IMG/VR virus record: IMGVR_UViG_3300015615_000629
Span: 256,001-320,000 of that record
Origin: a virus
Taxonomy: Duplodnaviria > Heunggongvirae > Uroviricota > Caudoviricetes
Strand: one strand, 5' to 3'
Length of the DNA stretch: 64,000 nucleotides
The translations under genes and the position numbers were made by a program. Positions within the stretch are counted from its first letter, which is position 1. Each line of letters begins with the position of its first letter. Below, one piece after another: positions 30,075 through 30,887 of this stretch. The notes under the pieces are model-generated. The model did not search any database. It saw nothing but the letters and a program-made list of their open reading frames with translations, and had not been told where the DNA came from.

Positions 30075-30195
30075 AGGACAAATTCAAATCGTCTGAGTCG
30101 TATGAGCTGTTAAACTAACACCTTTTCAATGGGTGTGCTTATGAGGCACATTGTTTGTAAGGCTCAAGCAGTTGGAGACGATTTGAATTTGTCCT
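30075..30195 (-). ncRNA. Y-RNA-like unit 1 (CAU anticodon-like loop)
   Basis: Perfect 20-bp closing stem 30075-30094/30176-30195; conserved GUCUCCAAC..UUACAAACA..GACUCAGA; internal UGUGC-CUCAUAA-GCACA. Confidence 0.7.
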
Positions 30196-30201
30196 CTCTT
30201 A

Positions 30202-30346
30202 AAAAACACTACTTCATCTGAGTCGCACTAGCAGTTTTGATAAACAACTAGGAATCGAACCTAGTCTTCAACCTCTGAAGGGTTGCGTCCTACCAACGGA
30301 CACTTGTTTGTAATGCTGTTGCAGTTGGAGACGTAGTAGTATTTTT
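30202..30346 (-). ncRNA. Y-RNA-like (YrlA-like) unit 2 with complete tRNA-like domain, UCA loop
   Basis: 18-bp closing stem with G-U pairs that only form on the minus strand; D arm GUCC/GGAC, anticodon arm CAACC-CUUCAGA-GGUUG, T arm CUAGG-UUCGAUU-CCUAG. Confidence 0.75.
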
Positions 30347-30355
30347 CCTCGTGTA

Positions 30356-30565
30356 TTAACCGAACACGGCTTCCGGACGAACCGTAATGTCACCCGTTGC
30401 CCGGTTGCGTTCAACGTGCATGTAACTCAACTTGCCCGACTCCAAATTTAAATGAGCCGTGACAGCCGACAAAATCTGTTCGTCAGACGAAACTTCGCCA
30501 ATATCAAGCAAGTTCTGCTCGACATCGTAACTTCGTCCGTCGTATCGAATGTGTAGTTGAGCCAT
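30356..30565 (-). CDS. Small ubiquitin-like (beta-grasp-type) protein ending RPEAVFG
   Basis: 69 aa; beta-beta-alpha-beta pattern, C-terminal Gly, AAGGGG RBS; E1 and JAB genes nearby. Confidence 0.6.
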   Translation of the reverse strand: MAQLHIRYDGRSYDVEQNLLDIGEVSSDEQILSAVTAHLNLESGKLSYMHVERNRATGDITVRPEAVFG

Positions 30566-30594
30566 TTTAGTTTACCCCTTGTAAAAAAGACTTC

Positions 30595-30692
30595 GGTATC
30601 TGAGTCCTAGCAGCGTTGTCTTTGGGGCTTCACGCCCCGCAGACGGTCAAAACTTTGCAAGTGTTTGTAATGCTGTTAGCGTTGGAGACACC
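30595..30692 (-). ncRNA. Y-RNA-like unit 3 (GCA anticodon-like loop)
   Basis: GGUGUCUCCAAC..CAUUACAAACA..GACUCAGAUACC; UUGCAAA loop and GGGGC/GCCCC hairpin. Confidence 0.65.
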
Positions 30693-30787
30693 TGAGTCAA
30701 GGCGGGAGATGCTGGATTCGAACCAACTATTTCGGTTTTCAGTCGAAACGTTACCTTGTTTGTAGAGTTCTGTCAGTTGGCGACGGT
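30690..30787 (-). ncRNA. Y-RNA-like unit 4 (GAA anticodon loop plus T arm)
   Basis: GUCGCCAACUG..CUACAAACA..GACUCAG; UUUCGA-CUGAAAA-CCGAAA and GUUGG-UUCGAAU-CCAGC. Confidence 0.65.
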
Positions 30788-30859
30788 AAAACCATCGAAG
30801 TCGAAAAAACCTGACTTTTTTAAATCTCCCGAATGACAACCATTGGTTGCCACTCCCCT

Positions 30860-30887
30860 AATCTACCGCAGTTTTTTCGTTTGTCAA
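30860..30887 (-). promoter_or_regulatory. Sigma70-like promoter TTGACA-N16-TAGATT for the RNA/Ubl/TROVE unit
   Basis: Minus strand ttgacaaacgaaaaaactgcggtagatt; 5' hairpin at 30831-30855. Confidence 0.65.

What the first reader, a model, noticed from the sequence alone, without database searches (positions are those of the whole stretch)
30075..30887. Array of four Y-RNA-like scaffolds, each displaying a different anticodon loop, upstream of a Ro60/TROVE gene
Seen in sequence: four units share a bipartite scaffold (5' GUC(U/G)CCAAC-stem-UACAAACA ... stem-GACUCAG 3'). Units 1 and 2 are closed by long helices of unrelated sequence (20 bp and 18 bp), so structure is conserved where sequence is not. 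The insert differs in each unit and carries a canonical 7-nt anticodon loop: CUCAUAA (CAU, Met/Ile2; 30139-30145); CUUCAGA (UCA; 30274-30280, inside a full D/anticodon/T cloverleaf); UUGCAAA (GCA, Cys; 30654-30660, weakest stem); and CUGAAAA (GAA, Phe; 30736-30742, with a T arm). Established: bacterial Ro60 (Rsr) binds adjacent Y RNAs, and YrlA RNAs contain tRNA-like domains. Inference: this is a modular constant-scaffold, variable-anticodon array acting as decoys or sensors for host anticodon nucleases, read out by Ro60. The scaffold does not match the canonical bulged-C GGUCCGA/UUGAC Ro site, so it may be a new ncRNA class.
Basis: partly seen in the sequence, partly recalled or inferred. Interest (0 to 1): 0.88.

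Follow-up and report, generated by a model that had tools for sequence, protein, structure and literature searches.

The report
Handle-tagged tRNA-mimic RNAs beside phage Ro60
A 572-kb phage encodes four small RNAs that share one conserved two-helix "handle" and mostly carry imitation tRNA parts, just upstream of a diverged Ro60-type RNA-binding ring protein. The same RNA-protein pairing recurs in other huge phages and many bacteria and appears in no RNA catalogue or paper I could search.

Summary
The four units are real, lie on the minus strand, and are the only copies of the motif in the 572-kb genome. They share a handle: helix P1, an internal loop (CCAAC opposite ACUC), helix P2, and the box UACAAACA. 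In relatives both helices covary strongly.

The downstream protein is Ro60 by predicted fold, although Pfam TROVE and NCBIfam Rsr miss it. Rfam YrlA and Y_RNA do not match the RNAs, and the known Ro60-binding motifs are absent.

The same handle sits upstream of homologous Ro60-like genes in about 10 huge-phage loci and in 56-69 of 80 bacterial loci, mostly Planctomycetota and Chloroflexota.

- Unit 3's "Cys loop" is a 3-base hairpin cap, which is UUCG in relatives.
- Unit 4 is a tRNA-like RNA with the handle inserted in place of the D arm. Its 3' handle strand lies upstream.
- Unit 2's closing helix is 11 bp, not 18.

Best reading: a new branch of Ro60/Y-RNA particles, within a conserved cassette of ubiquitin-like protein, Ro60-like protein, OB-fold protein, JAB and E1. 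The anticodon-nuclease decoy idea is untested and is weakened by the chromosomal bacterial copies. Earlier notes of this scan describe the same system on other DNA.

The parts
30860..30887 (-). Promoter-like site TTGACA-16-TAGATT ahead of the array
   Evidence: Consensus scan, 10 of 12 positions. This is a consensus match only and has not been shown to be active.
30701..30831 (-). Unit 4, an 'inside-out' unit: a tRNA-like RNA with the handle in place of the D arm. Acceptor GGGAGAU (30830-30824) pairs with AUCUCCC (30710-30704). The handle hairpin spans 30814-30757: P2 3' strand, GACUU 30802-30798, P1 CGAUGGU/ACCGUCG, CCAAC 30780-30776, P2 5' strand, box UACAAACA 30764-30757. Also GGUAA, an anticodon arm with loop CUGAAAA (30742-30736), and a T arm (30727-30711).
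   Evidence: MFE fold, pairing scan, and model R1 at 59.1 bits, E 2e-11. The same architecture is seen in 17 relatives (alignment A3).
30692..30698 (-). Orphan 3'-handle-like GACUCAG that abuts unit 3. No partner strand was found.
   Evidence: Sequence. A similar ACUYRG follows inside-out units in L001 and L129. Unexplained.
30595..30692 (-). Unit 3: handle (P1 GGUGUCU/AGAUACC, CCAAC 30685-30681, box 30669-30662, GACUC 30606-30602) with non-tRNA cargo of two hairpins.
   Evidence: The class D alignment with 5 relatives shows the first hairpin is UUCG-capped elsewhere.
30356..30565 (-). 69-aa ubiquitin-like ORF ending RPEAVFG, set inside the RNA array.
   Evidence: Homologue found in 14 of 15 phage loci and 45 of 80 bacterial loci. 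Its structural neighbours are beta-grasp proteins.
30208..30340 (-). Unit 2: handle (P1 11 bp, CCAAC 30328-30324, box 30312-30305, GACUC 30224-30220) enclosing a full tRNA cloverleaf (30310-30240). The anticodon loop is CUUCAGA (UCA, 30280-30274). The box supplies the 5' strand of the acceptor stem.
   Evidence: ARAGORN, Rfam tRNA 45.3 bits, fold. Alignment A2 with 12 relatives shows 27 of 36 pairs with compensatory change.
30074..30196 (-). Unit 1: handle (P1 21 bp, CCAAC 30175-30171, box 30159-30152, GACUC 30099-30095). Its cargo is a lone anticodon-like arm, UGUGC-CUCAUAA-GCACA (30150-30134), plus a small hairpin.
   Evidence: Fold z = -7.0. Model R2, which was not trained on this unit, scores it 46.5 bits, E 1.7e-9.
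30042..30066 (-). GC-rich hairpin followed by a U run (terminator-like) between the array and the Ro60-like gene.
   Evidence: Sequence and hairpin alignment. The terminator scan did not flag it.
28504..30009 (-). Ro60-like ring protein (HEAT-repeat TROVE-like ring plus vWA domain), 501 aa counted from ATG 30009.
   Evidence: AF2 model with pLDDT 80.5. The top 12 Foldseek PDB matches are all Ro60/Rsr/phage Ro60, E 2e-11 to 5e-8, TM 0.54-0.67. Pfam vWA_Ro60 is below its cut-off.
26401..27207 (-). Conserved 268-aa partner protein. The predicted N-terminal part resembles tandem OB/S1 folds, and the C-terminal part carries an invariant G-x-C-L...D-x-x-F-D-L motif.
   Evidence: Downstream of the Ro60-like gene in 13 of 15 phage and 44 of 80 bacterial loci. 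AF2 pLDDT 90. Foldseek's best matches are S1/CSD/exosome-cap proteins and are weak.
26016..26501 (-). JAB/JAMM peptidase.
   Evidence: Pfam Prok-JAB, E 2e-7. PADLOC JAB.
23882..24520 (-). ThiF-type E1-like adenylating enzyme.
   Evidence: Pfam ThiF, E 4e-32. PADLOC E1-E2 models.

Best explanation
The four units are members of a widespread, uncatalogued family of Y-RNA-like 'handle RNAs'. I infer that they are the RNA partners of a diverged Ro60-type ring protein.

Each RNA has a constant handle:
- helix P1
- an internal loop, 5' C(C/A)NAY opposite 3' ACUY
- helix P2
- the single-stranded or cargo-paired box UACAAAC(A)

I propose that this handle is the docking site for the Ro60-like protein, as the conserved stem of Y RNAs is for Ro60.

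The rest of each RNA is interchangeable cargo, usually a tRNA look-alike. It is grafted in one of three ways:
- through the acceptor stem (unit 2)
- as a permuted, sealed tRNA (relatives only)
- with the handle inserted into the tRNA body in place of, or next to, the D arm (unit 4)

Other cargoes are a bare anticodon arm (unit 1) and non-tRNA hairpins (unit 3).

By analogy with YrlA/Yrn1 and with phage phiLo Yrl RNAs, the cargo would tether tRNA-recognising or RNA-degrading factors to the ring. It could also present tRNA-shaped substrates or baits.

The RNAs form one operon-like cassette with a ubiquitin-like protein, an OB-fold protein, a JAB peptidase and an E1. The phage probably took this cassette from, or shares it with, bacteria such as Planctomycetota.

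Shown here: the family, its structure, its gene linkage, and the Ro60 fold. Inferred: binding, tethering, and any role in conflicts over tRNA.
For: Specificity in the genome:
- The motif occurs 4 times, against 0.01 expected.
- It occurs nowhere else in the 572-kb genome.

The protein:
- The predicted fold matches Ro60 in all 12 top PDB matches, including Rsr and phage phiLo Ro60.

Structure of the RNAs:
- In 13 acceptor-grafted units, 93% of cells are paired against 73.5% in shuffles. All 10 P1 pairs and 7 of 8 P2 pairs show compensatory change, and 0 of 500 shuffles reach the observed values.
- In 18 inside-out units, 14 of 16 pairs covary.

Linkage to the Ro60-like gene:
- In four phage records of 340-390 kb, every model R1 hit lies within about 4.5 kb upstream of the Ro60-like gene. 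A fifth record, of 239 kb, also has a second cluster.
- In bacteria, the 5' motif is seen in 69 of 80 loci, almost always on the gene's strand and mostly just upstream.
- A stricter scan finds 139 full modules in 56 of 80 loci, 102 of them with a T arm.

Cargo that argues against ordinary tRNA genes:
- sealed acceptor stems in permuted units
- cargo-less units of about 80 nt
- one shared acceptor 5' strand whatever the anticodon
- Ser (UGA) and Leu (UAG) anticodons on short-variable-loop bodies

Precedent:
- Y RNAs are encoded next to Ro60 and mimic tRNA (PMC4201824).
- Phage phiLo Ro60 binds two upstream Y-like RNAs and host PNPase (PMC12135203).
Against: - No binding or expression data exist. 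The link to the Ro60-like protein rests on gene position alone.
- The handle lacks the GNCGAA / GGUCCGA motifs known to contact Ro60.
- One phage (G003) has a second cluster of handle-bearing, otherwise complete tRNAs inside its ordinary tRNA array, about 20 kb from the Ro60-like gene.
- Several acceptor-grafted relatives score 60-70 bits as tRNA and encode CCA after the discriminator base. Some of these may therefore be matured into working tRNAs.
- Ro60-like loci at 40-48% identity show no such handle.
- The OB-fold protein, rather than the ring, could be the protein that binds the handle.
Confidence: 0.62

Rival explanations
1. Anticodon-nuclease decoy or sensor panel. The tRNA-shaped cargoes display real-looking anticodon loops. 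Host tRNA-cutting defence nucleases would attack them instead of working tRNAs, or their cleavage would be sensed through the Ro60-like ring.
For: - Loops are 7 bases with U33 and a purine at 37, and copy real tRNA loops. CUCAUAA occurs in 4 units from 4 loci. CUGAAAA occurs in at least 3.
- Anticodons differ widely: 9 different triplets among 13 acceptor-grafted units, and 21 triplets among bacterial units.
- Huge phages carry many tRNAs, which fits conflict over tRNA.
Against: - The same cassette sits in bacterial chromosomes. It is therefore not specifically an anti-host device.
- Many units have no anticodon arm at all: unit 3 and the minimal 80-nt units.
- I found no nuclease, ligase or repair gene in the annotated part of the cassette.
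- Nothing here tests cleavage.
Confidence: 0.12
2. Processing cassettes for real tRNAs. The handle would be a conserved leader/trailer, or an internal element, that guides maturation or quality control of unusual phage tRNAs, which are then released and used in translation.
For: - Acceptor-grafted relatives score up to 69.9 bits as tRNA.
- About half carry CCA after the discriminator base.
- G003 has complete tRNAs (acceptor, D, anticodon and T arms) with the handle between the D and anticodon stems, inside its ordinary tRNA array.
- M. smegmatis YrlA is cut by RNase P and receives CCA in vivo (PMC4201824).
Against: - Permuted units have hairpin-sealed acceptor stems and cannot be charged.
- Units 1 and 3 and the minimal units contain no tRNA body.
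- In inside-out units the handle would remain inside the tRNA.
- Unit 2 has a 1:72 mismatch, G at positions 8 and 14, and no CCA.
- All acceptor-grafted units share the same acceptor 5' strand regardless of anticodon.
Confidence: 0.18
3. Decayed tRNA genes or chance repeats with no function of their own.
For: Units 3 and 4 fold no better than shuffled sequence when folded alone (z = -1.6 and -0.6).
Against: - There is strong covariation in both handle helices.
- The handle is conserved across phages and bacteria whose proteins are about 50% identical.
- The motif is exclusive to this locus in the genome.
Confidence: 0.02

Closest known systems
YrlA-type bacterial and phage Y RNAs with Rsr/Ro60 (Rfam RF02553; Chen et al. 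2014, PMC4201824)
   Same: - Small RNAs encoded next to a Ro60-fold gene on the same strand, often several per locus.
- A closing stem region plus a tRNA-like domain with T and D arms.
- Permuted units in relatives have the YrlA order: T arm, then sealed acceptor, then D arm.
   Different: - No GNCGAAN0-1G motif.
- No RF02553 match at the array. The best hit in the genome is 22.8 bits, elsewhere, against a cut-off of 69.
- The handle has two covarying helices, a CCNAY/ACUY loop and a UACAAAC box.
- Full anticodon arms are kept.
- Two further grafting topologies exist.
- Arrays reach about 10 units.
- The protein is not detected by Pfam TROVE or NCBIfam Rsr.
Thermus phage phiLo Ro60 with Yrl1/Yrl2 (PMC12135203; PDB 9KOP, 9L5Y)
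   Same: - A phage-encoded Ro60 with Y-like RNAs directly upstream of the gene.
- The window protein's model matches 9KOP and 9L5Y.
   Different: - The phiLo RNAs are stem-bulge-stem RNAs with a CGAA motif.
- No tRNA cargo is reported for them.
- No ubiquitin-like cassette is reported there.
Deinococcus radiodurans Yrn1 (Y RNA that tethers Rsr to PNPase)
   Same: The tRNA-like features run in the normal 5'-to-3' order, with a possible anticodon arm. In this it resembles unit 2 more than YrlA does (PMC4201824).
   Different: - Yrn1 carries the canonical Ro60-binding sequence.
- It has only a partial D arm and a 6-base loop.
- It is a single RNA type, not an array with swapped cargo.
Dictyostelid Class I RNAs (PMC7919456)
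   Same: The general layout is similar: a terminal stem, then a conserved box of about 11 bases next to the 5' strand, then a variable interior. From my own knowledge, the box is CCUUACAGCAA, which resembles CUUACAAACA here.
   Different: - It is a eukaryotic, lineage-restricted class with an RRM protein partner.
- There is no Rfam match to it in the array at E<=10.
- The box register differs by one base.
- I treat the likeness as unproven.

Membership tests
YrlA / Y RNA (Rfam RF02553, RF00019) | Match to the family covariance model at or above the gathering score | tested here: not met
   There is no Y_RNA or YrlA hit in the array at E<=10, and none in 15 related loci at gathering threshold. 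RF02553's best hit in the genome is 22.8 bits, elsewhere, against a cut-off of 69.
YrlA / Y RNA (Rfam RF02553, RF00019) | Ro60-binding motif: GGUCCGA bulged helix (metazoa, Yrn1) or GNCGAAN0-1G near the 5' end (YrlA) | tested here: not met
   The 5' strand reads GUC(U/G)CCAAC here and GUCCCCUAC or GUCCCAUAC in relatives. The motif definitions come from PMC4201824.
YrlA / Y RNA (Rfam RF02553, RF00019) | Encoded within about 2 kb of a Ro60 gene, same strand | tested here: met
   The array lies 65-820 nt upstream of the Ro60-fold gene on the minus strand. The same arrangement holds in relatives.
YrlA / Y RNA (Rfam RF02553, RF00019) | tRNA-like domain (T arm, D arm) | tested here: met
   Unit 2 has a full cloverleaf. 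Unit 4 has a T arm and an anticodon arm. Units 1 and 3 lack a T arm.
YrlA / Y RNA (Rfam RF02553, RF00019) | Physically bound and stabilised by the Ro60 protein | not testable with these tools
   This needs immunoprecipitation or EMSA.
Ro60 / TROVE protein family | Ring of HEAT-like repeats followed by a vWA domain | tested here: met
   AF2 model, pLDDT 80.5. Full-length Foldseek matches go to 12 Ro60 structures, TM 0.54-0.67. Pfam vWA_Ro60 matches 12 of 25 family members.
Ro60 / TROVE protein family | Sequence match to Pfam TROVE or NCBIfam Rsr above the cut-off | tested here: not met
   There is no TROVE hit. vWA_Ro60 scores 23.1 bits against 27.7. Rsr scores 14.8 bits against 900.
Genuine tRNA gene (unit 2) | Cloverleaf with tRNA-model score above threshold | tested here: met
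   RF00005 scores 45.3 bits against 29. ARAGORN calls the anticodon UCA.
Genuine tRNA gene (unit 2) | Free acceptor ends, paired 1:72, U8/A14, and a 3' CCA or a site for its addition | tested here: not met
   Positions 1:72 are mismatched, positions 8 and 14 are both G, and UCA follows the stem instead of CCA. The acceptor stem runs on into handle helix P2. Actual processing cannot be tested here.
Handle-RNA family next to Ro60-like genes (uncatalogued; defined here and in earlier notes of this scan) | P1, C(C/A)NAY loop, P2 of about 10 bp, UACAAAC box, and an (N)ACUY 3' strand, with covarying P1 and P2 | tested here: met
   All four units fit. R1 scores unit 4 at 59 bits. R2 scores unit 1 at 46.5 bits and unit 2 at 102.5 bits. 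Covariation is shown.

The most novel reading that the evidence does not exclude
The cassette is a bait-and-tag machine. Handle RNAs dock on the Ro60-like ring and display tRNA-shaped baits. Proteins that grab those baits, such as tRNA nucleases, modifiers or synthetase-like factors of the opponent, are then marked or inactivated by the co-encoded ubiquitin-like protein through its E1, with the JAB peptidase trimming it. This would be an RNA-displayed substrate-selection system for protein tagging in bacteria and phages. A sulfur-relay variant is also possible, in which the Ubl/E1 pair thiolates the tRNA mimics or real tRNAs.
Probability: 0.12. Interest if true: 0.92.

Novelty: new variant of a known kind. 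Interest (0 to 1): 0.74.

Why it matters
Ro60/Y-RNA particles are conserved from bacteria to humans, where Ro60 is a lupus and Sjogren autoantigen. Why bacterial Y RNAs imitate tRNA is still unknown.

This family offers several things:
- **Variety of mimics.** There are many natural variants in which the same handle carries tRNA mimics grafted in three different ways, or no mimic at all.
- **A hidden branch of Ro60.** The partner protein belongs to a large Ro60 branch that standard annotation misses. At least 564 bacterial loci and many huge phages carry it.
- **An unreported link.** The RNAs and the ring are fixed next to a ubiquitin-like/E1/JAB set, a link between an RNA particle and protein tagging that I found in no paper.
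- **Testable material.** Some hits come from named genera with cultured members, such as Gemmata, so the function of tRNA mimicry in Ro60 particles could be tested directly.
- **Annotation.** tRNA finders call some of these units as tRNA genes, for example the "tRNA-SeC" here, and so inflate the tRNA and suppressor counts of huge phages.

Tried and rejected
- **Loose motif scan of viral contigs (14 specified bases).** It returned over 118 mostly single chance hits and was useless, except that two hits lay on contigs later found through the protein.
- **Profile of the protein family against PDB sequences.** It found nothing, although the single sequence gave E 2.5e-5 to phiLo Ro60. Fold comparison settled the question.
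- **Rfam at gathering and at E<=10.** Only tRNA matched. No ribozyme, Y RNA, YrlA or Class I RNA family matched, so I dropped the self-cleaving ribozyme idea and membership of Class I RNA.
- **K-turn reading of the internal loop.** Rejected: the 5' strand has no tandem G-A.
- **Reading the loop as the Y-RNA bulged-C helix.** The 3' strand UUGGAC looks like UUGAC, but no consistent pairing holds in both the window (ACUC) and the relatives (ACUU).
- **Closing unit 4 with the downstream GACUCAG.** Rejected: P1 starts with a mismatch and P2 has no complementarity.
- **More distant Ro60-like loci (40-48% identity: L130, L133-L136).** No handle was detected with R1. I did not pursue whether they use another handle.
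- **PADLOC.** It does not know the Ro60-like protein, the ubiquitin-like protein or the 268-aa protein.
- **Supplementary tables of Chen et al. 2014.** They are not held, so I could not check whether Planctomycetota were among their "no YrlA found" genomes.
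Full report
**What is there**

The feature lies on the minus strand. Read 5' to 3', the order is:
- a promoter-like TTGACA-16-TAGATT (30887-30860)
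- unit 4
- unit 3
- a 69-codon ORF (30565-30356)
- unit 2
- unit 1
- a GC-rich hairpin with a U run (30066-30042)
- a 501-codon gene starting at ATG 30009

The motif CCAAC-N11-UACAAACA occurs four times in the window, against 0.01 expected. These are the only four copies in the whole genome, a 572,167-bp virus record with terminal repeats.

**The protein**

Sequence methods barely recognise the downstream protein:
- Pfam vWA_Ro60 is below its cut-off and there is no TROVE hit.
- NCBIfam Rsr scores 14.8 bits against a cut-off of 900.
- The match to the phiLo phage Ro60 sequence has E 2.5e-5.

An AlphaFold model built on 25 homologues has pLDDT 80.5. It matches Ro60 structures along its full length. 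The top 12 PDB hits are all Ro60, Rsr or phage phiLo Ro60, with E 2e-11 to 5e-8 and TM 0.54-0.67. It is therefore a Ro60-fold ring with a vWA domain, from a branch that standard annotation misses.

**Anatomy of the handle**

Each unit has a 5' strand and a 3' strand.
- The 5' strand is [P1 5' ...GUCY][CCAAC][P2 5', about 11 nt][UACAAACA].
- The 3' strand is [P2 3'][G-ACUC][AGAY... P1 3'].
- In the window, the G before ACUC usually pairs with the U after CCAAC. This leaves a 5-by-4 internal loop.

The four units differ as follows:
- **Unit 1** has a 21-bp P1 (fold z = -7.0). Its cargo is a lone 5-bp stem with loop CUCAUAA plus a small hairpin.
- **Unit 2** has an 11-bp P1 with one mismatch, not 18 bp. 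It encloses a full cloverleaf with anticodon UCA. The box itself forms the 5' strand of the acceptor stem.
- **Unit 3** carries two hairpins and no tRNA part. Four relatives cap this hairpin with UUCG. It is not an anticodon loop.
- **Unit 4** is inside-out.
  - Its 3' handle strand (GACUU-CGAUGGU) lies upstream of its 5' strand, so P1 is a capped hairpin and P2 opens outward.
  - The handle sits inside a tRNA-like RNA with acceptor GGGAGAU/AUCUCCC, no D arm, a GGUAA element, an anticodon arm with CUGAAAA, and a T arm.
Similar orphan ACUYRG strands follow inside-out units in two relatives. I cannot explain them.

**Relatives in phages**

The protein family is large. At least 1,928 proteins match at E<=1e-5, many on contigs of 200-595 kb. 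I fetched 15 viral loci with 40-59% identical proteins.

In about 10 of them (protein identity of 48% or more), the same handle recurs upstream on the gene's strand. It usually reads GUCC-CCUAC...UACAAAC...(G/A)ACUU-GGAC. I counted 53 modules in 12 sources: 11 related loci plus the window.

The cargo falls into classes:
- (A) a full tRNA joined through its acceptor stem
- (B) a permuted tRNA: T arm, hairpin-sealed acceptor, D arm, anticodon arm
- (C) inside-out units like unit 4
- (D) the two-hairpin cargo of unit 3
- (E) minimal units of about 80 nt with no cargo

**Covariation**

- On 13 class A units, 93% of cells pair, against 73.5% in shuffles and 32-49% when partners are slid by 1-3 columns. 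Of 36 pairs, 27 show compensatory change, including all 10 of P1 and 7 of 8 of P2. None of 500 shuffles reaches the observed values.
- On 18 inside-out handles, 14 of 16 pairs covary.
- These controls do not remove phylogenetic signal. However, the many pair types at single positions are hard to explain without structure. For example, the P1-proximal base pairs read GUCC/GGAC, GUCU/AGAC, GUAC/GUAC, GCAC/GUGC and GCGC/GCGC.

**Linkage to the Ro60-like gene**

I built a model of the inside-out handle, R1.
- In the window's own genome it finds only the array.
- In four phage records of 340-390 kb, all its hits lie within about 4.5 kb upstream of the Ro60-like gene.
- A fifth record (G003, 239 kb) has the same cluster plus a second one about 20 kb away. 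This second cluster lies inside the ordinary tRNA array. There, complete tRNAs with acceptor, D, anticodon and T arms carry the handle between the D and anticodon stems, for example with anticodons UCC and UCU.
- This exception shows that the handle is tied to tRNA biology as well as to the gene.

**Bacteria**

A scan of one genome per species found at least 564 loci that encode 46-58% identical proteins. They are mainly in Planctomycetota (Pirellulaceae, Gemmataceae, Isosphaeraceae, Phycisphaerae) and Chloroflexota, and include multi-megabase chromosomes.
- The 5' handle motif is present in 69 of 80 loci, almost always on the gene's strand and mostly just upstream.
- R1 gives 75 hits.
- A strict two-strand scan finds 139 modules in 56 of 80 loci. 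Of these, 127 have normal topology and 102 have a T arm.
- A 6.9-Mb Pirellulaceae chromosome and an Aeoliella genome show CCGUAC-CCAAC-N10-UACAAAC...GACUC-GUACGG. These are the same loop sequences as in the window.

**The cassette**

- The 69-aa ORF inside the array ends in RPEAVFG. It recurs in 14 of 15 phage loci and 45 of 80 bacterial loci. Its structural neighbours are beta-grasp proteins.
- A 268-aa protein recurs downstream of the Ro60-like gene in 13 of 15 phage and 44 of 80 bacterial loci. In the window, four small non-conserved ORFs lie between the two genes. Its model has pLDDT 90, and its best but weak fold matches are S1/OB RNA-binding proteins.
- A JAB peptidase and a ThiF-type E1 follow.
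- The RNAs are thus part of a fixed gene set, not a free-standing array.

**Comparison with what is known**

- Y RNAs next to Ro60 that mimic tRNA are established for bacteria and mycobacteriophages (PMC4201824).
- Phage phiLo Ro60 binds two upstream Y-like RNAs and host PNPase (PMC12135203).
- A review notes TROVE proteins with a "tRNA-like partner" in a few jumbo phages (PMC7824862).

The present RNAs fail the YrlA membership tests. There is no model match and no GNCGAA motif. They also add features I did not find described:
- a two-helix handle with a UACAAAC box
- retained anticodon arms
- three grafting topologies
- long arrays
- the ubiquitin-like link

Six literature searches found no description.

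The likeness to dictyostelid Class I RNAs, raised by earlier notes of this scan, is limited to the layout and a similar box. Rfam gives no match.

Earlier notes of this scan describe the same kind of system on other genomes. My tests agree with them independently, but those notes are not evidence.

**Mechanism**

Shown: the family, its structure, its linkage and the Ro60 fold.

Inferred, with about 60% confidence: the handle docks on the Ro60-like ring, or on the OB-fold partner, and the cargo acts as a tether or bait for tRNA-recognising factors, as in YrlA/Yrn1 particles.

The processing-cassette rival is discussed above and under the rival explanations. Its support comes from the high tRNA scores, the encoded CCA and the G003 cluster. 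The evidence against it is the sealed, cargo-less and internal-handle units, and the single acceptor 5' strand shared by all anticodons.

The decoy idea remains possible but is untested. It is less economical now that the cassette is known to be chromosomal in bacteria.

Noticed in passing
window 30356-30565 (-): A 69-aa ORF ending RPEAVFG sits inside the RNA array. The same small protein, with the same C-terminus, sits in or beside the arrays of 14 of 15 phage loci and 45 of 80 bacterial loci. Its predicted structure resembles beta-grasp ubiquitin-like proteins.
   Followed up: partly
window 26401-27207 (-): A 268-aa protein is conserved downstream of the Ro60-like gene in phages and bacteria. 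Its confident model (pLDDT 90) has weak best matches to S1/OB/cold-shock RNA-binding domains, not to E2 enzymes. Its C-terminal motif G-I-C-L-S-G...D-R-x-F-D-L is invariant or nearly so.
   Followed up: partly
window 23882-24520 and 26016-26501 (-): A ThiF-type E1 and a JAB peptidase complete the cassette. Four non-conserved small ORFs (27204-28503), one with a pilin-type N-terminal methylation motif (27204-27554), are wedged between the Ro60-like gene and the 268-aa gene in this phage only.
   Followed up: partly
L143 6700-8250 (-) = G003:C1:126700-128250: In one related phage, otherwise complete tRNAs (acceptor, D, anticodon and T arms; anticodons such as UCC and UCU) carry the handle as an insert of about 75 nt between the D and anticodon stems. 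They lie inside the ordinary tRNA array, about 20 kb from the Ro60-like gene.
   Followed up: partly
window 30692-30698 (-): An orphan GACUCAG, identical to the 3' handle strands of units 1-3, follows unit 4 and abuts unit 3 with no partner strand. ACUUGG or ACUUAG occupies the same position after inside-out units in L001 and L129.
   Followed up: no
window 30239-30310 (-): ARAGORN labels unit 2's cargo 'tRNA-SeC (UCA)'. Tools will therefore count this and similar handle-enclosed mimics as tRNA or suppressor genes in huge phages.
   Followed up: yes
window 39979-46114 (-): A separate cluster of ordinary tRNA genes (five Leu, Phe, Ser) lies 10-16 kb away. Handle model R1 finds no match there, and model R2's two weak hits there (21-23 bits) align only the tRNA bodies.
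   Followed up: partly
L130, L133-L136 (upstream 4 kb): Ro60-like loci at 40-48% identity have tRNA arrays upstream but no detectable handle of this type. They may use a different handle.
   Followed up: no
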